Of a DNA stretch of 64,000 nt, positions 6,406-48,577 are shown in pieces; position 1 is the first letter of the stretch; each line of letters begins with the position of its first letter. The DNA is taken from assembly GCA_023898805.1 (NCBI GenBank), contig CP060260.1:1425656-1489655 (forward strand). Reading direction: 5' to 3'. The notes beneath the pieces are model-generated. The model was not told where the DNA came from, did not search any database, and saw only the letters and a list, made by a program, of their open reading frames with translations. Both the position numbers and the translations under genes were made by a program. This DNA comes from Rhodospirillales bacterium (lineage in GTDB: Bacteria; Pseudomonadota; Alphaproteobacteria; Micavibrionales; UBA1664).

Positions 6406-6786
6406 ATGACGATCCGCAAAATTCTTCTTTCCACGCTGGCGCTTTCAATGCTGGCTGTCCCCGCTTTGGCGCAGGACGCGCAGACGCCGCCGCCGGGTTA
6501 CATGGGTGGACCTCATGGCGGTCCTGGTGGCCCGCAGGGCGGTCCGCATGGGGGCATGGAAAAAATGCTCAATGCCGACACCAATGGCGATGGCATGCTC
6601 TCCAAGGCTGAATTCATGGCCGTTCAGGAAAAACGTTTCGACGAAATGGACGCCAACAAGGACGGGCAGGTCAGCAAGGATGAGATGAAGGCCTACCGCG
6701 AAACCATGCGCAGCAAGTTCGAGGAAAAGCGTAAGGAATGGGAAGCCAAAAAAGGCGCGGGCGCCAAAAGTGGTGACGCGGAATAA
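6406..6786 (+). CDS. Secreted EF-hand calcium-binding protein
   Basis: Signal peptide (LSTLALSMLAVPALA/QD), a Gly-Pro-His repeat (GGPHGGPGGPQGGPHGG) and two canonical EF-hand loops (DTNGDGMLSKAE, DANKDGQVSKDE). Confidence 0.8.
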   Translation: MTIRKILLSTLALSMLAVPALAQDAQTPPPGYMGGPHGGPGGPQGGPHGGMEKMLNADTNGDGMLSKAEFMAVQEKRFDEMDANKDGQVSKDEMKAYRETMRSKFEEKRKEWEAKKGAGAKSGDAE

Positions 6787-38693: not shown

Positions 38694-38778
38694 TATTTAC
38701 AAAATTTGCGAATTTCTAAACCCGCGTGTTAGCGTTGTTTTTGACATACGGTTCTTTTCTTTGGGGGAAACAAAGACA

Positions 38779-39546
38779 ATGAAAACCAGCACCGCGCTTT
38801 CGCGCCCGATCACTCACGAACGAATGCAGGCCATGGGGGCCCAGCCGCAGGATATTGCGCGCAAAATCGCGCTGGCGTGGATGGACACGCAAAGCGTCGA
38901 CGCGGCGCTGATGAATGCGGGGCGCGGCATCGCGCTCTGGCATGTCGCGCCTGCGGTACAAAACGCCGCCGCCGCCGCCATCGCCGACCTGATCGACGCG
39001 GACACGCGCGTCATCACCGCCGGTATCCAGCCCTGGGGCTGGATGGTCGCCTCAGGACTTTCGATGGCCGATATCGGTTGCGTCTATCTGGGCAAGCAGC
39101 TGCCGCGCCGCGTCATGCACGTATCGGCCGAGGATGTGACGCAGCATTTTGAAAAGGATGCAATCACGATCGTCGCCATGCATATCGAATCCTCCAGCGG
39201 CTGGAATGACGTGCGTACGATTTCTGCTGCCGCCGTGCGTGCGCAGACACCGATGCTGATGGTGGTGTCGACCGCCGTGCCGGCACCCGAGGGCGTGACC
39301 ATCGAACTTGCCAGCGACTGGAACGTATTGACCGCCAACTTGCGCGACGGGATGCGCGCGGTGCGCGATATGGGGACGATCCGCGTCGTCGCGATTCAAG
39401 ACATGCCGCTCGGCGGCATCGAACGCACGATGATGGAATCCGCCGCGATGTCGCCTGAATCATGGGTGGCGGCGATGCAAAAAAACAACGACGGGGCTGA
39501 ATCAGCGATGAACACCGCCTATCAGGCACCCGTCGAGTCTTTCTAA
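38779..39546 (+). CDS. Hypothetical protein (about 255 aa), no recognisable domain
   Basis: Long ORF preceded by an AT-rich region and GGGGGA about 10 nt upstream of ATG 38779. The track start at 38761 is TTG. I do not recognise any motif. Confidence 0.55.
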   Translation: MKTSTALSRPITHERMQAMGAQPQDIARKIALAWMDTQSVDAALMNAGRGIALWHVAPAVQNAAAAAIADLIDADTRVITAGIQPWGWMVASGLSMADIGCVYLGKQLPRRVMHVSAEDVTQHFEKDAITIVAMHIESSSGWNDVRTISAAAVRAQTPMLMVVSTAVPAPEGVTIELASDWNVLTANLRDGMRAVRDMGTIRVVAIQDMPLGGIERTMMESAAMSPESWVAAMQKNNDGAESAMNTAYQAPVESF

Positions 39547-39561: not shown

Positions 39562-40119
39562 TCAGGCCGCTTTCGGTACGTGTCCGGATCTTGGGGCATC
39601 GGTCATCCGATCACGCAGAATAAGGAAGGCCCATAACCACAGGGCACCATTATTCCGGCGGCGTTCGGCGCGGGGTTGCGTGCGGACATCACGCTTCCTC
39701 TCTTCTTTCGCCCAAAGCTTGTGTGTCGCAAGGTCTTTGCGTGTCGATTCCTCGCGCTTGCGTTTAAGCATCGCCAGCCTTTCGGCATAGGCGCGCTCCA
39801 ACGCGCTGATCTGTGTTTCCAAAGCCTCGGCCATCGCGTCGGCGCGGCCGAACAGGGCGATCATGCGCGCAAGGTTTGCGCGCGCGGCCAGAATGCTGCG
39901 GTCAAGCATCGTCAAAACCGGATCGGTGCGCATGAACGCATCGCTGACGGTATTGCCGTCTTCGGCCAAAGGCATCCGCTCGACGATCTGGCTTACCAGC
40001 GCGAGCGAGTCTTCCAGCGACTGGCGCGCCTGACCTCGTGCCGCCTGTTCATCGGCAGGGCGCGTGGTCTTGCGCGTGGTCTTGTCGGTGGTGCGAATGG
40101 CTTTCATATCTGATTGCAT
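39562..40119 (-). CDS. Hypothetical coiled-coil protein with a C-terminal hydrophobic anchor
   Basis: 185 aa: basic N-terminus, heptad-like helical middle (EALETQISALERAYAERLAMLKRKREE) and a C-terminal hydrophobic stretch GALWLWAFLIL. No convincing RBS. Confidence 0.45.
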   Translation of the reverse strand: MQSDMKAIRTTDKTTRKTTRPADEQAARGQARQSLEDSLALVSQIVERMPLAEDGNTVSDAFMRTDPVLTMLDRSILAARANLARMIALFGRADAMAEALETQISALERAYAERLAMLKRKREESTRKDLATHKLWAKEERKRDVRTQPRAERRRNNGALWLWAFLILRDRMTDAPRSGHVPKAA

Positions 40120-40311: not shown

Positions 40312-40716
40312 TTATGCGGCGTCGCGACGGCGTCTTGGCGCCGGCTTTTCTCGTGTGGCATTCGGCTGGGGCAGGGGGTGGGTGATCGCGCCCGGTGCGC
40401 GCATTTCGGCCAGATAGGCTTCAAGCGCCTCGTGATAATCGTGGTTGACCATCACATACAGGCGCAGCGCATCGCGCAGATGGTCGCGCGCGAATATGGC
40501 TTCGTAACCCAAATAAAGCTTTTCCGTCGCATCGCTTTCGGCGGCGATCTTCTCGCTCAGGGTGCGGTAATCGCGGATCGCCGCGCGCAGCTTTTCGCGG
40601 TGGCGGGTCAGGATTTCGGCCATTTGCTTGACTTCGACATATTGCCACGCCTTGACGCGCGTTTCGCGCAGGCGCGCGGTCAGTTCCGCAAAGCTGCTGT
40701 TCGATGTTTTTTTCAT
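40312..40716 (-). CDS. Hypothetical small helical protein (about 134 aa)
   Basis: ORF trimmed to MKKTSNSS at 40716. Predicted all-helical with an Arg-rich tail. Lies divergent from the XRE gene across an AT-rich region. Confidence 0.45.
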   Translation of the reverse strand: MKKTSNSSFAELTARLRETRVKAWQYVEVKQMAEILTRHREKLRAAIRDYRTLSEKIAAESDATEKLYLGYEAIFARDHLRDALRLYVMVNHDYHEALEAYLAEMRAPGAITHPLPQPNATREKPAPRRRRDAA

Positions 40717-40885
40717 ACCCGTAGTCGCCGTTTGTCCGCTAATATCGACTTTATAAAAACAAAAGTTTCTCTTTTTAAATTTCCATATCGTATAACCGCT
40801 CGACAGGACGGGAGTCAAGTTCTAAATTGAAGCAAGTTAAAAAAACATTTTTTCTTTCTTGCGTTTTTGCGAATTCATCATTATG

Positions 40886-40891
40886 TATAAT
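40886..40891 (+). promoter_or_regulatory. Consensus -10 box (TATAAT) in the AT-rich divergent promoter region 40717..40944
   Basis: TATAAT lies 54 nt upstream of the XRE gene start. No well-spaced -35 hexamer: TTGCGA gives a 13-nt spacer and TTGCGT gives 21 nt. Confidence 0.35.
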
Positions 40892-40944
40892 CCCCAACGA
40901 AAAACTTTGACCGGGGCAAACTCAGGGGTATAGAACGCTTCAAG

Positions 40945-41643
40945 ATGACCATTTCAACAGCACAAATTCGCGGCGCGCGCGGCCTTCTCGATTGGTCGCA
41001 GGCGGAGCTGTCCCGTCGCACCGGCATCTCCACCACCTCGATCGGTAATATCGAAAGCGGGCACACCCAGGCGCGTGAAAGCACGCTGGCTGTCATTCGC
41101 GCGGCGTTTGAACGCGGCGGCATCGACTTCATTGGCAAGGAAGGCGTGCGCATGCAGACCGAGTTTCTGCGCACCTATACCGGCACCGAAGGGTTCAAGG
41201 ACTTCATGAACCACCTGTACGAAACCGCCAAGGCCTATGGCGGGGAAATCGTGCTGTTCAACGCACACCCGGAAGAATGGCAGAAATGGCTGGGTCAGGA
41301 ATGGTTCGCCATGCACTCCAAACGCATGGCCGATCTGGGTGACAAAATCAGCTTCCGCATCACCGCCAACTCGGGGGAGCAGAATTTCATCTCGCGCGAA
41401 TTTGCCGAATATCGCTGGTTCCCCGAGGAATTCATGTCGCGCCGGGCAATGTACGCCTATGCCGATTACATCGCCTTCGTCAATTTCGAGGAAAGCAACG
41501 TTTCGGTCATCGCGCTCAAACAGACGGATTTTGCCAACGCGTTCCGCGTCCTGTTCAATATCGCGTGGGACAAGGTCGCGTTGAAGCTCGACGAAAACGC
41601 GCCTGAAATCACGACGAAAACCAAGGCCAAAGCCGCGTCATGA
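40945..41643 (+). CDS. XRE/Cro-family HTH protein with an uncharacterised ~165-aa C-terminal domain
   Basis: N-terminal HTH IRGARGLLDWSQAELSRRTGISTTSIGNIESGHTQARESTL. I do not recognise the C-terminal domain. Confidence 0.8.
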   Translation: MTISTAQIRGARGLLDWSQAELSRRTGISTTSIGNIESGHTQARESTLAVIRAAFERGGIDFIGKEGVRMQTEFLRTYTGTEGFKDFMNHLYETAKAYGGEIVLFNAHPEEWQKWLGQEWFAMHSKRMADLGDKISFRITANSGEQNFISREFAEYRWFPEEFMSRRAMYAYADYIAFVNFEESNVSVIALKQTDFANAFRVLFNIAWDKVALKLDENAPEITTKTKAKAAS

Positions 41644-42890
41644 CTATGATGTTTAAACCCGGTCGCGAACGATACGTTCCCCTGTTCGTCGGGGGCGACA
41701 TCGTCGCGCAGTCGATTTTAAACGAATTCGTGCCGTTCCTGATTGAGAACGGTTTTACACCTGTCATTTATTTGCCGGCGTACAATCCGGTGAAAGGGGC
41801 GGTTTCGGCTTCGGTTTCGCCCGCGCGACACACATTCAAAAAGGCCAGTAAGGCCAGCAAGTCGATGGTTCTGCCGGACAATCCGGAGATCGCGCGTTTC
41901 CTGAAGCTGGAACGTAAAATCCTCGACGAGGCCGTATTCCCCTTCCTCAAACAAGAATCCTGCCCCGATGCGAAAATGATGACGCCGCATCAGCTGGCGC
42001 AAAAATACGGTCTGACGATCAAAGACGTTACTAACGTCAACGCGCCTGAATTCCTTGACGAGATTCGCAGCCTCAAGGCTAAAGGGCTGGCTGGTGCGCT
42101 TTCCATCCGTTGTTTCCAGATTTTCAAAAAGCCGATTATCGACTTGATCAAGGCCAGCAACGATCCTGCCCATCTGGATCCGGAAACGCTGGGTCCGGGC
42201 GAGCCCTTCTTCATGAACCTGCATCCCGGTCGTTTGCCGCAATATCGCGGCGTGTTTTCAACGCTCCGGGCTATGGCCGACTTTGCGCGCGCGGCGAGCT
42301 TGTATTACTTTGGTGCGACGTTGCACGATGTGAACACGGGAATCGATACAGGCCTGACTTATAAAATGAAGGGTCTGCCAATCAAATCGGACGAGTCGCT
42401 CTATGCGCATAACCTGCGTCTGGTGCTGGTGGCGACCAAGCTTCTGCACGAATTCGTTTCCGAATGGCAGGGCTTGAGCGCATCCACCAATGAGATGAAG
42501 GAAGGCATACCGCTGCACCAGCAGATAAGCCATGCTGGCGACAAGGCGGAATATTTCACCAACCCAACCAACGGCGAAATGGACGAAATGAAAGCCATGG
42601 GAATTCGTCTTGCCTCGGTCGATGAAGTAAAAACCGCGCTGATCGAACGGTACAGCGTCCCCGGCAGCGACCACGCAAAGCGTCTGGAAAAAGTCATGGA
42701 CCGATGGATTGCCGATCAGGGCATCGATCCGGGTCAGGATTATGCCGGCCCGGCGCGCACGGTGGCTGCTTTCGATCGCGGGCCGTCCGTTCGCTCTGCG
42801 CGTCGCGTCGTGTGCGGCCGCCCGCCCGTCAACGATCCGGGGAAGCCGCCTACTGGTACTACGGGTGGGCGCATCGCCTTGAGAGTGTGA
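41640..42890 (+). CDS. Divergent formyltransferase-fold protein (formyl_trans_N-like core; no Fmt C-terminal domain)
   Basis: FFMNLHPGRLPQYRG (Asn/His) and GATLHDVNTGIDTG (Asp) match the Fmt/PurN/ArnA catalytic signature. ATGA overlap with the XRE gene's stop. Confidence 0.7.
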   Translation: MTMMFKPGRERYVPLFVGGDIVAQSILNEFVPFLIENGFTPVIYLPAYNPVKGAVSASVSPARHTFKKASKASKSMVLPDNPEIARFLKLERKILDEAVFPFLKQESCPDAKMMTPHQLAQKYGLTIKDVTNVNAPEFLDEIRSLKAKGLAGALSIRCFQIFKKPIIDLIKASNDPAHLDPETLGPGEPFFMNLHPGRLPQYRGVFSTLRAMADFARAASLYYFGATLHDVNTGIDTGLTYKMKGLPIKSDESLYAHNLRLVLVATKLLHEFVSEWQGLSASTNEMKEGIPLHQQISHAGDKAEYFTNPTNGEMDEMKAMGIRLASVDEVKTALIERYSVPGSDHAKRLEKVMDRWIADQGIDPGQDYAGPARTVAAFDRGPSVRSARRVVCGRPPVNDPGKPPTGTTGGRIALRV

Positions 42891-42894
42891 TTTT

Positions 42895-42929
42895 AAACAA
42901 GCGCCCCGGTTTCGGGGCGCTTGTTTTTT
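42895..42929 (+). terminator. Rho-independent terminator
   Basis: AAACAAGCGCCCCG-gttt-CGGGGCGCTTGTTT, then a T-run to 42929. Confidence 0.9.
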
Positions 42930-42954: not shown

Positions 42955-44949
42955 ATGACGACCGTGATCTCCGCCCCCGATTTTTCCACCTATACGAATT
43001 TTGACTGGATTGCCGCGATCCGCGAACGCATTGCGCTGGCGCGCGGTCGCGTTGCAGAAATAAAAGCGTCGGGCAAGACCGATTTTTCACTGATCGCGGG
43101 GCTTGAAACCTGTGACGAGGAACTGGGGCAGGTGCTGGAGGTTTTCTACAGCCTGCTGGGCACCGACACGACCGACGCCATGCAGGCGCTGGCACAGGAA
43201 ATCGGTCCGATATCCGCTGAATTTTCGTCCGAAATCAGTCAGGACGTCGAATTGTTCCGGCTTGTCGACGCGCTCTGGGCAAAGCGCGATGGCATCAAGG
43301 ATCCCGCGCAATATGCCTGCCTTGAAAAACACTGGAAGGGTTTTGTGCGCAACGGTGCGCTGCTTGATGATGCGGGCAAGGCCCAGTTAAAGGCCATTGA
43401 CGCCGAAATGTCCAAGCTCGGCCCCAGATTTTCCGACAACATGCGCAAAAGCGCCAAGGCCTATCAACTGGTCATTACCGCGCCTGCCGATCTTGCGGGC
43501 TTGCCGGAAAGCGCCGTCGCCGCCGCGCGGGAGGAAGCGGAGGCCAAAGGCCACAAGGATGCCTGGCTGTTCACGCTCGACCATCCGTCCTACGTGCCGT
43601 TCATGACCTATGCCGACAACCGCGAATTGCGCGAACAGATGTGGCGCGCCTTTGCCGCGCGCGCCTACGGCGACGATTTCGACAATCGGGCATTGGCCAA
43701 GGAGATCGTGGGTCTGCGCCACGCGCGCGCCCGGCTTTTGGGCTATGCCGGTCACGCCGATTTCGTGCTGGAACGACGCATGGCCGAAACGCCGGAACGA
43801 GTTTTCGCGTTTCTTGATCGTCTGAAATCCGTGGCGCTGCCCGCCGCGCGGCGGGAGCTTGAGGAATTGCGCGCCTTCGCCGGCACGGACTTGAAACCGT
43901 GGGATGTCGGGTATTACAGCGAAAAACTCAAACAGAAAAAATATGCTTTCGATTCCGAAAGGCTGCGCCCGTATTTCCCTGTCGACGCGGTCCTCAAGGG
44001 CTGCTTTGCGCATTGCGAAAAACTGTTCGGTTTAAGCTTCCGCGAAAGCGGCGCCTATTCCGTCTATCACCCGGATGTCAAACCCTTCGATGTGGTGGAC
44101 AGCGCAACCGGCACGCCGCTTGGCCTTTTATATGCCGATTTCTTCCCGCGCGATGGCAAGAATTCCGGCGCGTGGCAAGGCACGTTCCGCGAACGGCGGA
44201 TCATGCGCGACGGCAATACCGGCCTGCCGCTTTCGGTGATCGTGTGCAATTTCACCAAGCCGACGAAGGACAAGCCATCGCTGCTCTCGTTCGACGAGGT
44301 CGAAACGTTGTTCCACGAAATGGGCCACGCCCTGCACACCTTGCTGACGACCATCGACTACCCGTCGATTTCCGGGACGTCCGTATATTGGGACTTCGTC
44401 GAACTGCCCAGCCAGATCATGGAAAACTGGCTGACCGAAAAAGAAACGCTGGATATTTTCGCGCGGCATTACGAAACCGGTGAAACGATCCCGCAACAGC
44501 TTATCGATGCGCTGAAAAAATCCCAGAATTTCATGGCCGGATGGTTCGTGATGCGGCAACTGCAATTCTGCCTGCTGGACATGACATGGCATACGGCCGA
44601 CCCGGCGTCGATCGGCGACGTTCTGACGTTTGAACGCGGCGTGCTCGACCCGCTTGCCTTGCTGCCTTACGAGGCGGGATGCGTAAGCACGTCCTTCAGC
44701 CACATTTTCGCAGGCGGGTATTCGGCCGGATATTACAGTTATCAATGGGCGGAGGTGCTGGACGCCGACGCGTTTTCGCTGTTCAAGGAAAAGGGCCTGT
44801 ACGACCCCGCCACGGGCCGCGCCTTCCGCGACCGCGTTCTGGCCTTGGGCGGTTCGCGCCCGCCGCTTGATCTGTTTCGTGACTTCCGTGGGCGCGAACC
44901 GGACCCGGATGCGTCCTTGCGCCGACGTGGGCTTTTGGACGCGGCTTAA
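42955..44949 (+). CDS. M3-family zinc metallopeptidase (peptidyl-dipeptidase Dcp / oligopeptidase A type)
   Basis: HEMGHALH zinc motif with a downstream Glu, about 664 aa. Start trimmed to ATG 42955. Confidence 0.88.
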   Translation: MTTVISAPDFSTYTNFDWIAAIRERIALARGRVAEIKASGKTDFSLIAGLETCDEELGQVLEVFYSLLGTDTTDAMQALAQEIGPISAEFSSEISQDVELFRLVDALWAKRDGIKDPAQYACLEKHWKGFVRNGALLDDAGKAQLKAIDAEMSKLGPRFSDNMRKSAKAYQLVITAPADLAGLPESAVAAAREEAEAKGHKDAWLFTLDHPSYVPFMTYADNRELREQMWRAFAARAYGDDFDNRALAKEIVGLRHARARLLGYAGHADFVLERRMAETPERVFAFLDRLKSVALPAARRELEELRAFAGTDLKPWDVGYYSEKLKQKKYAFDSERLRPYFPVDAVLKGCFAHCEKLFGLSFRESGAYSVYHPDVKPFDVVDSATGTPLGLLYADFFPRDGKNSGAWQGTFRERRIMRDGNTGLPLSVIVCNFTKPTKDKPSLLSFDEVETLFHEMGHALHTLLTTIDYPSISGTSVYWDFVELPSQIMENWLTEKETLDIFARHYETGETIPQQLIDALKKSQNFMAGWFVMRQLQFCLLDMTWHTADPASIGDVLTFERGVLDPLALLPYEAGCVSTSFSHIFAGGYSAGYYSYQWAEVLDADAFSLFKEKGLYDPATGRAFRDRVLALGGSRPPLDLFRDFRGREPDPDASLRRRGLLDAA

Positions 44950-47899: not shown

Positions 47900-48577
47900 A
47901 TGAAACGATTTCTGATTTTGGCCATGCTGGCCTCCCTGTTTCCCGCTGTGCTGTCCGCTAGATCCGCACTTGCGATGACGGCGCAGGAACTGGGCGCGCT
48001 GTACAGTCCTTATACCGGCGATTCCACCATGGCGCTGGACCAGCCGCATCGCACGGTCACCGAGATCGGGTCGTGGGTATCCGAGATCGTGGGCACGGTA
48101 TTGAAATTCGCGTCCGGAAACACGGGCCGCCATCTGACCGTTATTCGCCCGTATTTCACCGATCAGGGCTACGCCGGTTTCGCGGGATTTTTGAACGCAC
48201 AGGGTTTTGGCGATGCGATCGCCAAACAAACTCTGGGTATGGACGCCACGCCGGATGCGGCGCCGACCCTGCTGGGGCAGGGGGCGTCGAACGGCGCCTA
48301 TGCCTGGGCGTTTGAGGTGCCATTAACTCTGGTCGTTTCAAGCGTACCGGGCAAACCCCCGGTCAACCGCGACGTGACCATCCGCATACAGGTCACCCGT
48401 TCGCCCAAAGGGGCGGACCCGCACGGTGTGCTGATCGACAGCTGGGCCGCGTTCGACGGCGTGGATACGTTCAGGAAGACGGGTTCCGGTTTGGGGCAAG
48501 CCCCGTTGCAAGCCCCGTTGCAAGCCCCGGCGCAAGCCCCGGCGCAAGATAGTGGACAACCGGCACGAACGCCTTGA
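47900..48577 (+). CDS. IcmL/DotI-like domain protein with signal peptide and a repetitive QAP tail
   Basis: Signal peptide MKRFLILAMLASLFPAVLSA. The core pattern (W..E.....F.......YFT..G...F...L, G.YAW.FEVPL, V.V.R.P) resembles the DotI/IcmL family. Confidence 0.55.
   Translation: MKRFLILAMLASLFPAVLSARSALAMTAQELGALYSPYTGDSTMALDQPHRTVTEIGSWVSEIVGTVLKFASGNTGRHLTVIRPYFTDQGYAGFAGFLNAQGFGDAIAKQTLGMDATPDAAPTLLGQGASNGAYAWAFEVPLTLVVSSVPGKPPVNRDVTIRIQVTRSPKGADPHGVLIDSWAAFDGVDTFRKTGSGLGQAPLQAPLQAPAQAPAQDSGQPARTP
48497..48548 (+). repeat. 12-bp tandem repeat x4.3 inside the IcmL-like gene
   Basis: caagccccgttg x2, caagccccggcg x2, then caag, encoding QAPLQAPLQAPAQAPAQ. Confidence 0.95.

What the first reader, a model, noticed from the sequence alone, without database searches (positions are those of the whole stretch)
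40945..42929. Translationally coupled XRE-HTH protein and an orphan formyltransferase-fold enzyme in an AT-rich islet
Seen in sequence: 40945..41643 encodes an XRE/Cro HTH fused to a ~165-aa C-terminal domain I cannot place. Its TGA overlaps (ATGA, 41640-41643) the start of a 416-aa protein. The core of that protein carries the formyl_trans_N catalytic signature: FFMNLHPGRLPQYRG supplies Asn/His and GATLHDVNTGIDTG supplies Asp, as in Fmt, PurN and ArnA. It lacks an Fmt-type C-terminal tRNA-binding domain. It has a ~70-aa insertion early in the Rossmann half (roughly residues 40-110) and a Pro/Gly/Arg-rich tail, and it ends at a strong terminator. The pair sits in DNA that is visibly AT-richer than the flanking glpK and M3-peptidase genes. 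It is not adjacent to purine, Met-tRNA or sugar-nucleotide genes. Inference: a horizontally acquired regulator/partner plus one-carbon (N-formyl) transferase module with an unknown substrate. One testable idea is a toxin-antitoxin-like pair in which the transferase blocks charged tRNAs, by analogy with GNAT toxins (TacT/AtaT) that acetylate aminoacyl-tRNA. The alternative is N-formylation of an amino sugar or small molecule.
Basis: partly seen in the sequence, partly recalled or inferred. Interest (0 to 1): 0.75.

Follow-up and report, generated by a model that had tools for sequence, protein, structure and literature searches.

The report
Conserved regulator with swappable transferase partner
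A DNA-binding protein kept almost unchanged across Micavibrio-like predatory bacteria is followed by a fast-changing small-group transferase, here an uncharacterised formyltransferase, which points to an undescribed regulator-plus-enzyme module rather than a horizontally acquired toxin-antitoxin pair.

Summary
Gene A (40945..41643, XRE-HTH plus an unknown C-terminal domain) overlaps gene B (41640..42890) by ATGA. B has a formyltransferase fold with an intact Asn-His-Asp triad and no Fmt tRNA-binding domain, and it ends at a strong terminator.

The pair is not an acquired islet. A sits in a syntenic locus (M3 peptidase / A-X / DDAH-like) across Micavibrio-like Alphaproteobacteria, and its identity tracks that of the flanking genes.

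The gene after A is a replaceable slot. In 68 of 94 A loci it holds a small-group transferase: B-type formyltransferase (27), class-I SAM methyltransferase (16), EgtD-like methyltransferase (15), GNAT (4) or others. 27 of 28 B relatives with visible upstream DNA follow an A gene.

B diverges far faster than A. In one genome pair A is 99% identical, M3 97% and B 51%, with B's synonymous sites saturated. Elsewhere B's dN/dS is 0.34-0.42 against about 0.1.

A's C-terminal domain models confidently as a TrmB-effector-like / PLD-like fold.

Best reading (confidence 0.45): an autoregulated operon of a conserved sensor-regulator and an interchangeable amine-modifying enzyme. A conflict or toxin-like role is not excluded. 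The substrate is unknown.

The parts
40312..40716 (-). Gene U: a small (~134 aa) helical protein of unknown function, transcribed divergently from A. Its C-terminus is ...RRRRDAA. It may be a third component of the module.
   Evidence: 57% identical to the gene at the same position in L003. An iterated HMM finds it in 19 loci, always beside an A-X module: divergent upstream, or convergent downstream of A-MT33. No Pfam, NCBIfam, PADLOC or PHROG hit. The longest ORF runs to 40818. The start at 40716 is inferred from the alignment with relatives.
40717..40944 (.). AT-rich divergent promoter/regulatory region. It contains an inverted repeat CTCGAC-N9-GTCAAG (40799-40819), an A7-CA-T6 palindrome (40839-40853) and an extended -10 TGTATAAT (40884-40891).
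   Evidence: The non-coding region aligns at 62% mean column identity across 5 genomes, and the listed motifs are conserved. AAAAA-N5-TTTTT occurs in 19 of 83 A upstream regions, against at most 4 for any word-gap pair in shuffles. A -35-like CTGGACA and TTATAGAA just 5' of the start codon recur. That these are A's operators is inference.
40945..41643 (+). Gene A: 232-aa XRE/Cro-type HTH (residues ~5-57) plus a ~135-aa C-terminal domain (residues ~75-210) with a TrmB-effector-like / PLD-like fold.
   Evidence: HTH_3 E 5.9e-8. About 200 homologues at 42-83% identity, and at least 515 in species-representative genomes. AF2 pLDDT 88.9. Foldseek matches the C-terminal domain to TrmBL2 5bpi (9e-7), TrmB 2f5t (2e-5) and Nuc/NucT/Zucchini. 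It matches the HTH to C.Kpn2I 4yba, which is also a sequence hit at 7e-9.
41640..42890 (+). Gene B: 416-aa formyltransferase-fold enzyme of an uncharacterised clade. Catalytic N193/H195 (42216-42224) and D236 (42345-42347). Protein-specific disordered insert at residues ~50-77 (41787-41870). Disordered basic P/G/R-rich tail at residues 360-416 (42717-42887).
   Evidence: The family has 196 representatives at E<=1e-30 and 1140 at E<=1e-10 in 1.84 billion cluster representatives.
42895..42926 (+). Intrinsic terminator closing the A-B operon: a 14-bp perfect stem, a 4-nt loop and a T run.
   Evidence: -26.6 kcal/mol, z -4.47, and 0 of 200 shuffles fold as well. No terminator-like site lies between A and B, which overlap.

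Best explanation
A and B form a two-gene operon. It runs from the conserved AT-rich promoter region to the terminator at 42895-42926, and it is a lineage-wide module of Micavibrio-like Alphaproteobacteria.

A is a vertically inherited, strongly constrained DNA-binding protein. It has an XRE HTH whose recognition helix is nearly invariant. Its C-terminal domain has the fold of the TrmB effector/oligomerisation domain, which is PLD-like, with the HKD catalytic motif not conserved. I infer that A binds the conserved intergenic region as an oligomer and controls its own operon. I also infer that the C-terminal domain acts as a sensor or oligomerisation module.

B is a catalytically competent member of a distinct, uncharacterised clade of the N10-formyl-tetrahydrofolate transferase superfamily, with the Asn-His-Asp triad and cofactor loop intact. 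It has no tRNA-binding domain. I infer that it N-formylates an amine on a small molecule, such as an amino acid or amine, and not Met-tRNA.

The position after A is a replaceable cassette. In orthologous loci it is filled by class-I SAM methyltransferases, EgtD-like alpha-N-methyltransferase homologues or GNAT acetyltransferases. Sometimes two of these sit in tandem. The module is therefore best described as a conserved regulator plus an interchangeable amine-capping (formyl/methyl/acetyl) transferase.

Shown: gene structure, folds, catalytic residues, co-occurrence, synteny, cassette replacement and rate asymmetry.

Inferred: DNA target, autoregulation, sensing, formyl donor and substrate class.
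For: Operon structure: ATGA overlap, no internal terminator, strong terminator after B.

Conserved synteny: U-A-B-M3-DDAH-ABC1-COQ9 in relatives.

Vertical inheritance of A: A identity tracks M3 identity, r = 0.89. The M3-linked A genes form one clade that splits by partner type.

Co-occurrence: 68 of 94 A genes are followed by a transferase of six classes. 27 of 28 B genes follow an A gene.

Fold of A: the C-terminal domain matches TrmBL2/TrmB at E 9e-7 to 2e-5. H124 and R127 are invariant, but K126 and D130 are variable, so the HKD motif is not kept. The HTH positions I33, I36 and E37 are invariant, and S29 and T31 nearly so.

Regulatory DNA: the upstream region is conserved, with palindromes and an extended -10.

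B as an active enzyme: N193, H195, G204, H229, D236 and G238 are invariant. The best solved relatives by sequence are sugar N-formyltransferases QdtF and WlaRD (E 8e-22 to 2e-21), ahead of Fmt and PurN. There is no Formyl_trans_C domain and the C-terminus is helical.

Small-molecule context of relatives: wider B-family members are fused to, or adjacent to, NAD_binding_9 / Lys_Orn_oxygenase-like flavoenzymes.

Partner chemistry: Methyltransf_33 partners match EgtD/EasF amino-acid alpha-N-methyltransferase models.
Against: - Regulator-first order, translational coupling and promiscuous partner exchange are also hallmarks of type II toxin-antitoxin modules (PMC8832971, PMC10440598).
- B's gene-wide dN/dS is 0.34-0.42 against about 0.1 for A and M3. 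One allele was replaced outright (B dS saturated, flanks 0.3-1.2). This is more typical of conflict genes than of a housekeeping enzyme.
- Two genomes have 99%-identical A but carry different B alleles and a different second transferase, GNAT or Methyltransf_33. A can hardly sense the specific product of each enzyme.
- No substrate, pathway partner or transporter is evident.
- No operator was demonstrated. The only family-wide palindrome is an A/T tract.
- 26 of 94 A genes have no recognised transferase partner.
Confidence: 0.45

Rival explanations
1. Conflict module. X (here B) is a toxin or effector enzyme. It acts either on the cell itself (toxin-antitoxin or abortive-infection type) or on prey or competitors. 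A is its conserved repressor and/or neutraliser, a hub partner comparable to the hyperpromiscuous Panacea/HTH antitoxins. The first reader's specific version, in which B blocks aminoacyl-tRNA by N-formylation, is a sub-case. I rate that sub-case at about 0.05.
For: - HTH-first bicistron with ATGA overlap.
- The HTH resembles R-M controller and HipB/Y4mF antitoxin HTHs.
- One conserved partner is paired with unrelated enzyme folds.
- B and MT25 partners diverge much faster than A. Cassette replacement has sharp borders at A's stop codon.
- Tandem, variable transferase arrays occur.
- B has a disordered basic tail, and a DotI/IcmL-like gene lies 5 kb away.
Against: - A is much more conserved than B, and it stays 99% identical while B is exchanged. 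That argues against a specific neutralising interface.
- The locus is syntenic and vertically inherited, not patchy or mobile.
- No PADLOC defence-family hit for B or U.
- B (330-450 aa) has no tRNA-binding domain or signal peptide, and the tails are not conserved or consistently basic.
- Relatives of B occur with flavoenzymes in fungi and other bacteria, a biosynthetic context.
- No formyl- or methyltransferase toxin appears in the main text of the NetFlax toxin-antitoxin survey.
Confidence: 0.25
2. X enzymes covalently modify a protein, either A itself or another DNA-binding or nucleoid protein, at an N-terminal alpha-amine or a lysine. Formyl, methyl and acetyl groups would then be alternative marks that tune DNA binding.
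For: - Formylation, methylation and acetylation are the three classical modifications of protein amino groups (established knowledge).
- Translational coupling would give co-production of A and X.
- A's N-terminus, M-(T/S)-I-(T/S)-T-A-Q-I-R, is highly conserved.
- TrmBL2, the best structural match, is a chromatin protein.
Against: No lysine is invariant in A. Formyltransferase-fold enzymes that act on proteins are not known (own knowledge). EgtD/EasF-type methyltransferases act on free amino acids (own knowledge). There is no direct evidence for this reading.
Confidence: 0.1
3. B is not a transferase but a 10-formyl-THF hydrolase or one-carbon-pool modulator. PurU and the FDH hydrolase domain use the same Asn-His-Asp triad. 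A would regulate it.
For: The triad and cofactor loop are conserved. No acceptor-binding domain or pathway context was identified. PurU chains are among the weaker PDB hits.
Against: The closest solved relatives by sequence are acceptor-dependent N-formyltransferases. The slot alternates with methyl- and acetyltransferases, which suggests group transfer to a shared kind of acceptor.
Confidence: 0.07

Closest known systems
Sugar and small-molecule N-formyltransferases (QdtF 4xcz, WlaRD 4lxq, ArnA N-domain, VioF, WbkC)
   Same: They share the Formyl_trans_N catalytic core, the N-x-H...D triad and the 'LPxY(R/K)G' and 'TLHxxxxGIDTG' motifs. They are the best sequence-profile matches to B (E 8e-22 to 1e-14) and among the top fold matches.
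   Different: B has a family-specific elaboration of the N-terminal half (long helix 82-105), signature motifs (DVNDPEF, SIRCxQIF, YYTYPT) and a helical C-terminal extension. There is no nucleotide-sugar pathway context. B is always paired with an HTH protein.
Methionyl-tRNA formyltransferase (Fmt)
   Same: Same fold and catalytic triad, and a Foldseek top-5 match. Both have an insertion after beta-2.
   Different: The TIGR00460 score is 13.2 against a cut-off of 201.5. B has no Formyl_trans_C OB domain for tRNA binding.
N-hydroxylase plus formyltransferase pairs of hydroxamate biosynthesis (for example PvdA/PvdF, CchB/CchA; from my own knowledge)
   Same: More distant B-family members are fused to, or adjacent to, FAD NAD_binding_9 / Lys_Orn_oxygenase-like enzymes.
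   Different: The window has no flavoenzyme. PvdF is not among the 60 best-scoring PDB matches listed. The link is contextual only.
TrmB-family regulators (TrmB, TrmBL2)
   Same: The architecture is a DNA-binding domain plus a PLD-like effector/oligomerisation domain. These are the best structural matches to A's C-terminal domain.
   Different: A's DNA-binding domain is an XRE/Cro HTH, not the TrmB winged helix. No sequence-level relationship was found. A lacks TrmB's second sugar-binding subdomain, because its C-terminal domain is only ~135 aa.
Restriction-modification controller (C) proteins, for example C.Kpn2I
   Same: This is the best sequence and structural match to A's HTH, including the following beta-hairpin. 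C proteins also lie upstream of, and are often translationally coupled to, the enzyme gene they control.
   Different: C proteins are 80-100 aa with no extra domain. Their partners are nucleases and DNA methyltransferases. A's partners are not DNA-methyltransferase families.
Type II toxin-antitoxin modules with promiscuous antitoxin domains (PanA/Panacea, HTH antitoxins; GNAT toxins TacT/AtaT)
   Same: An HTH protein comes first, the genes overlap, and one conserved partner domain is combined with many unrelated downstream enzymes, GNATs included (PMC8832971, PMC10440598).
   Different: The locus is chromosomal, syntenic and vertically inherited. A is far more conserved than its partners. The partners are restricted to small-group transferases of 230-450 aa. 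Toxicity is untested.

Membership tests
Formyl_trans_N superfamily (N10-formyl-THF transferases/hydrolases) | Catalytic Asn-x-His and downstream Asp in the conserved motifs | tested here: met
   N193, H195 and D236 are invariant in alignments of 20 and 50 family members. They align to the motifs of QdtF.
Formyl_trans_N superfamily (N10-formyl-THF transferases/hydrolases) | Significant sequence or fold match to the family | tested here: met
   The single sequence is below the Pfam cut-off (21.6 against 26.1 bits). The family profile hits PDB formyltransferases at E 8e-22. Foldseek gives E 3e-11 at probability 1.0.
Methionyl-tRNA formyltransferase (Fmt, TIGR00460) | C-terminal Formyl_trans_C OB-fold tRNA-binding domain and an equivalog-level score | tested here: not met
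   No PF02911 hit. The score is 13.2 bits against a cut-off of 201.5. Residues 254-360 are predicted helical.
PurN / GAR transformylase (TIGR00639) | Equivalog-level score, ~200-aa single domain, purine operon context | tested here: not met
   23.4 bits against a cut-off of 150.1. B is 416 aa and has no purine genes nearby.
Nucleotide-sugar N-formyltransferases (WlaRD/QdtF/ArnA type) | Genomic association with nucleotide-sugar aminotransferase, dehydratase or glycosyltransferase genes | tested here: not met
   The neighbours are glpD, glpK, M3 peptidase, DDAH-like, ABC1 and COQ9. The same holds in the relatives examined.
Nucleotide-sugar N-formyltransferases (WlaRD/QdtF/ArnA type) | Activity on a dTDP/UDP/GDP-amino sugar | not testable with these tools
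   This needs an enzyme assay. It is the closest group by sequence.
Type II toxin-antitoxin system | Adjacent co-transcribed pair with a DNA-binding antitoxin | tested here: met
   ATGA overlap and an HTH_3 domain in A.
Type II toxin-antitoxin system | Patchy, mobile distribution, with toxin and antitoxin co-evolving | tested here: not met
   The locus is syntenic across the order. A is 99% identical where B is 51%. dN/dS is 0.02-0.11 for A and 0.34-0.42 for B.
Type II toxin-antitoxin system | The toxin inhibits growth and the antitoxin neutralises it | not testable with these tools
   This needs expression experiments.
TrmB family transcription regulators | N-terminal TrmB-type winged-helix domain | tested here: not met
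   A has an XRE HTH_3 domain instead.
TrmB family transcription regulators | C-terminal effector domain of the TrmB fold | tested here: inconclusive
   Foldseek gives E 9e-7 to 2e-5 and TM ~0.4 over the full-length query. There is no sequence-level hit. PLD-fold nucleases match equally well.
Phospholipase D / Nuc superfamily | Conserved HxK(x)4D catalytic motif | tested here: not met
   H124 is invariant, but K126 and D130 vary across 24 members and the spacing is HxKxxxD.
R-M controller (C) proteins | Small HTH-only protein that controls an adjacent nuclease or DNA methyltransferase | tested here: not met
   A is 232 aa with an extra domain. Its partners are formyl-, small-molecule-type methyl- and acetyltransferases. 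Only the HTH resembles C.Kpn2I.

The most novel reading that the evidence does not exclude
The A family is the fixed anchor of a hypervariable, recombination-exchanged cassette array of small-group transferases (formyl, methyl, acetyl). Micavibrio-like predators would use these as toxins or effectors in conflict with prey, phages or kin. This would be a new class of polymorphic enzymatic conflict locus, and it would include the first formyltransferase-fold toxin. A would serve as a universal repressor or neutraliser that does not need to co-evolve with its partners.
Probability: 0.2. Interest if true: 0.85.

Novelty: new variant of a known kind. Interest (0 to 1): 0.62.

Why it matters
If the module works as proposed, it defines two uncharacterised protein families. 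One is an XRE-HTH fused to a TrmB/PLD-like domain, with at least 515 members in species-representative genomes. The other is a distinct formyltransferase clade, with about 200 to 1100 cluster representatives.

It also shows an unusual evolutionary pattern. One strongly conserved DNA-binding protein sits next to a slot where enzymes that use three different group donors (formyl-THF, SAM, acetyl-CoA) replace one another in the same chromosomal position. This happens even between genomes whose flanking proteins are 97-99% identical.

That pattern suggests the three chemistries are functionally interchangeable on a common kind of target. A single set of experiments (mass shifts of +28, +14 or +42 Da on metabolites or proteins) could find that target.

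The lineage consists of obligate predatory bacteria, which have few characterised regulators. The result could therefore expose a prey-related or conflict-related pathway. It also corrects a tempting but weakly founded annotation of a 'horizontally acquired toxin-antitoxin' pair.

Tried and rejected
Homologue searches
- The word-indexed protein search found only 1-2 true B homologues, both with the single sequence and with a 20-sequence profile. It missed relatives that locus-based and exhaustive searches then found.
With a 12-sequence alignment it returned only 8 loci.

The A-B complex was not tested.

Searches that found nothing
- PADLOC and PHROGs gave no defence or phage family for B or U. 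For A they matched only generic HTH models.
- Rfam found no RNA family in 36-48 kb. The only tRNA is 9 kb away, so there is no island boundary.
- Literature searches found no described XRE-formyltransferase pair and no Micavibrio formyltransferase.

Ideas considered and rejected
- An operator search for family-wide palindromes yielded only A/T-tract palindromes and promoter elements. I do not claim an operator.
- The partner families are not remote homologues of B. hhalign gave probabilities below 1%.
- HGT of the pair is rejected on synteny and GC3.
- A conserved basic C-terminal secretion signal in B is rejected. Tails vary in length and charge.
- Look-ups of distant B relatives on short contigs (L086, L087) gave little context.
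Full report
**1. What is in the window**

Two co-directional ORFs occupy 40945..41643 (A, 232 aa) and 41640..42890 (B, 416 aa). They overlap by ATGA. Identical proteins are on record from a 'Rhodospirillales bacterium' MAG, where B carries locus tag H6865_01155 on a 1.94-Mb contig.

A has a Pfam HTH_3 domain at residues 8-54 (E 5.9e-8) and nothing recognisable after it.

B alone scores below the Pfam threshold for Formyl_trans_N (21.6 against 26.1 bits). It scores far below every NCBIfam equivalog: PurN 23.4/150, Fmt 13.2/201, ArnA 11.7/777.

A perfect 14-bp hairpin followed by a T run (42895-42926; -26.6 kcal/mol, z -4.5) closes the pair.

The neighbours are glpD, glpK, two ORFs without family hits, a small divergent gene U, then M3 peptidase, a DDAH-like gene, ABC1/UbiB, COQ9 and a DotI/IcmL-like gene.

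No Rfam family lies in 36-48 kb, and the nearest tRNA is at 31.7 kb.

The GC dip is real but modest. A and B are 57% and 56% GC, the window is 60.6%, and the trough is the intergenic promoter region. GC3 of A (0.75) and B (0.66) lies within the neighbours' range.

**2. B is a genuine, probably active, formyltransferase-fold enzyme of an uncharacterised clade**

I collected B homologues from related loci and built a 20-sequence alignment. N134, N193, H195, G204, H229, D236 and G238 are invariant in it. In a 50-sequence alignment S155, N193, H195, G197, P200, G204, H229, D236 and G238 are invariant. These include the canonical Asn-x-His...Asp triad and the cofactor loop.

The family profile hits solved formyltransferases. 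Sugar N-formyltransferases come first: QdtF 8e-22, WlaRD 2e-21, 5uij and 7n7a. ArnA and VioF follow, and Fmt and PurN are weaker.

The AF2 model (pLDDT 80.6) matches sugar N-formyltransferases, Fmt and the ArnA N-domain at E ~3e-11.

There is no Fmt-type C-terminal OB domain. Residues 254-360 are helical.

A ~26-aa disordered, protein-specific segment lies at about residues 52-77. The family-wide helix is 82-105. The tail 360-416 is disordered and basic here, but tails are not conserved across the family.

An exhaustive search gives 196 cluster representatives at E<=1e-30 and 1140 at E<=1e-10.

Some members are C-terminal fusions to FAD NAD_binding_9 / Lys_Orn_oxygenase-like enzymes. The one such cluster whose membership I looked up contains a fungal protein from Sphaerulina musiva. 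An unfused flavoenzyme-B pair occurs in a bacterial contig. This is a contextual hint that relatives act on small-molecule amines.

**3. A is a large, strongly conserved family with a TrmB/PLD-like C-terminal domain**

About 200 homologues at 42-83% identity over the full length are in the protein collection. At least 515 are in species-representative genomes. Nearly all come from Micavibrio, 'Pseudobdellovibrionaceae' or unclassified alphaproteobacterial MAGs.

The alignment shows invariant HTH positions (I33, I36, E37). It also shows an invariant set in the C-terminal domain: N106, H124, R127, M128, Y156, W158, Y170, Y172, F181, F204 and W208.

The AF2 model is confident (pLDDT 88.9). Foldseek places the C-terminal domain with TrmBL2 (9e-7), the TrmB effector domain (2e-5) and PLD-fold nucleases (Nuc, NucT, Zucchini, PLD3). 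It places the HTH with the R-M controller C.Kpn2I, which is also the best sequence hit at 7e-9.

The PLD HKD motif is not conserved: K126 and D130 vary. No Pfam family covers the domain in any of 24 members.

**4. The pair is a real module, but it is not an acquired islet**

In relatives the order U(-), A, B, M3, DDAH, ABC1, COQ9 is preserved.

Across 80 genome loci the M3-linked locus occurs in two arrangements, A-X-M3-DDAH and M3-A-X-DDAH. A's identity to the window protein tracks M3's. A is 78-82% where M3 is 72-81%. A is about 60-69% where M3 is about 48-54%. Across 55 pairs r = 0.89.

A neighbour-joining tree puts all M3-linked A genes in one clade.

Nucleotide homology between the window and its four closest relatives covers U, the intergenic region and A up to about 41580-41597. 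It resumes inside M3 at about 42972-43081. B itself has no detectable nucleotide similarity, apart from one 62-nt motif.

**5. The gene after A is a replaceable transferase slot**

Among 94 distinct A genes with visible downstream DNA, 68 are followed on the same strand by one of six enzyme classes. The following gene either overlaps A or starts within about 130 nt. The classes are:
- B-type formyltransferase, 27
- Methyltransf_11/25 class-I methyltransferase, 16
- Methyltransf_33 (EgtD/EasF-like), 15
- GNAT, 4
- another class-I methyltransferase, 4
- PALP-like, 2

Profile-profile comparison shows that B is unrelated to the other classes.

Within the M3-linked orthologous clade the partner type is clade-specific: formyl, MT25, MT33 and one GNAT. 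The same chromosomal slot has therefore been refilled by enzymes that use different donors.

Conversely, 27 of 28 B-family genes with visible upstream DNA follow an A gene.

Some A paralogues have no transferase partner. Examples lie upstream of ftsZ or next to LysR or sigma-54 regulators.

**6. Rate asymmetry and cassette replacement**

L011 and L012 have A 99%, M3 97% and DDAH 94% identical, yet B is only 51% identical. Nucleotide identity falls from 92-96% within A to 50-60% just after B's start codon (B starts at 6665; A's stop codon at 6670-6672). It recovers only at the DDAH gene.

In that pair dS is 0.32 for A, 0.80 for M3 and 1.17 for DDAH. It is saturated for B, with dN 0.44. The B alleles are therefore older than their flanks, which indicates replacement by recombination.

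The variable segment also carries a different second transferase: a GNAT in L011 and a Methyltransf_33 in L012. L010 has A-B-Methyltransf_11, and L093 has U(-), A-GNAT, A-B.

Where dS is comparable, B still evolves fast. In L003-L006 its dN/dS is 0.42, against 0.09 for A and 0.11 for M3. In L006-L007 it is 0.34 against about 0.10.

MT25 partners behave like B. MT33 and PALP partners are less extreme at short range.

**7. Regulatory region**

The 228-bp region between U and A is conserved in five genomes. It contains an inverted repeat CTCGAC-N9-GTCAAG, an A7-CA-T6 palindrome and an extended -10 TGTATAAT.

A5-N5-T5 occurs in 19 of 83 A upstream regions, against at most 4 for any word-gap pair in shuffles. 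A -35-like CTGGACA and a TTATAGAA element just before the start codon recur.

These features are compatible with autoregulation by A, but they do not demonstrate it.

**8. Interpretation**

The best-supported reading (0.45) is an autoregulated operon. It encodes a conserved XRE/TrmB-like regulator and an interchangeable amine-modifying transferase. B would be an N10-formyl-THF-dependent N-formyltransferase acting on a small molecule, not on tRNA.

The unifying idea is inference. Formyl-, alpha-N-methyl- (EgtD/EasF-like) and acetyl-transfer, and also PLP chemistry, all have well-known amino-acid or amine acceptors. The persistent neighbours are an oligopeptidase and a DDAH-like guanidino-modifying enzyme.

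Several features fit a conflict (toxin or effector) module at least as well, and I give that 0.25:
- the operon architecture
- partner promiscuity, compare PanA in PMC8832971 and PMC10440598
- elevated dN/dS
- allele replacement

Against direct neutralisation stands the near-identity of A across exchanged partners of different folds.

I rate covalent modification of A or another protein at 0.10 and a formyl-THF hydrolase role at 0.07.

B has no tRNA-binding domain, and its closest relatives are sugar and small-molecule enzymes.

**9. Novelty**

I found no description of this pairing in the searchable literature. The NetFlax toxin-antitoxin survey mentions no formyl- or methyltransferase toxins in its main text.

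The components are known folds. The association, the in-situ exchange of transferases that use different donors, and the two families themselves appear undescribed. I therefore classify the finding as a new variant of a known kind (a regulator- or antitoxin-like HTH plus enzyme operon). Interest is moderate to high because the pattern is unusual and directly testable.

Noticed in passing
window 40312-40716 (-); also L001 4659-5087, L003 4334-4747, L064 7958-8383, L069 7957-8346, L093 406-813: Small helical protein family U (~130 aa). Nearly every member ends in ...RR(x)AA, which may be a degradation tag or signal. It is found only beside A-X modules: divergent upstream of A-B, or convergent after A-Methyltransf_33. 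It matches no known family.
   Followed up: partly
L011 6665-8985 vs L012 6665-8726: Two genomes have 97-99% identical flanking proteins but a completely different segment between A's stop codon and the DDAH gene. The B alleles are 51% identical. L011 adds a GNAT, and L012 adds a Methyltransf_33.
   Followed up: yes
P0149, P0160, P0167, P0173, P0182 (780-880 aa); the P0155 cluster with Sphaerulina musiva XP_016762519; L098 53-2537: B-like formyltransferase domains are fused to the C-terminus of FAD NAD_binding_9 / Lys_Orn_oxygenase-like enzymes. At least one such cluster is fungal. An unfused flavoenzyme-B-TauE arrangement occurs in a bacterial contig. This suggests an N-oxygenation plus N-formylation pathway.
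   Followed up: partly
L072 6001-8913, L085 6001-8984: A-family paralogues without a transferase partner lie about 450-620 bp upstream of ftsZ.
   Followed up: no
window 40925-40935 region and the upstream regions of A genes in >=21 of 83 loci: A conserved TTATAGAA-like element lies immediately 5' of the A start codon. A CTGGACA -35-like element recurs in many paralogues' promoters. Either could be a translational or transcriptional control site.
   Followed up: partly
window 47900-48577 (+); L001 12614-13047: A DotI/IcmL-like type IVB secretion component (Pfam E 1.8e-16) lies next to COQ9 and ABC1/UbiB. The position is conserved in a relative.
   Followed up: no
window 38761-39546 (+) and 39562-40119 (-): Two ORFs (261 and 185 aa) between glpK and U have no Pfam or NCBIfam hit. 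Synteny with relatives begins only at about 40240, so this is where the local gene order differs (relatives have sucA-ExoD-DsbB).
   Followed up: no
L024 5968-9786, L057 2420-5933, L068 5986-7351, L083 4181-6660, L093 1044-5119: Two A paralogues occur in tandem or close together in one locus, each often with its own partner enzyme. This indicates local duplication of the module.
   Followed up: partly
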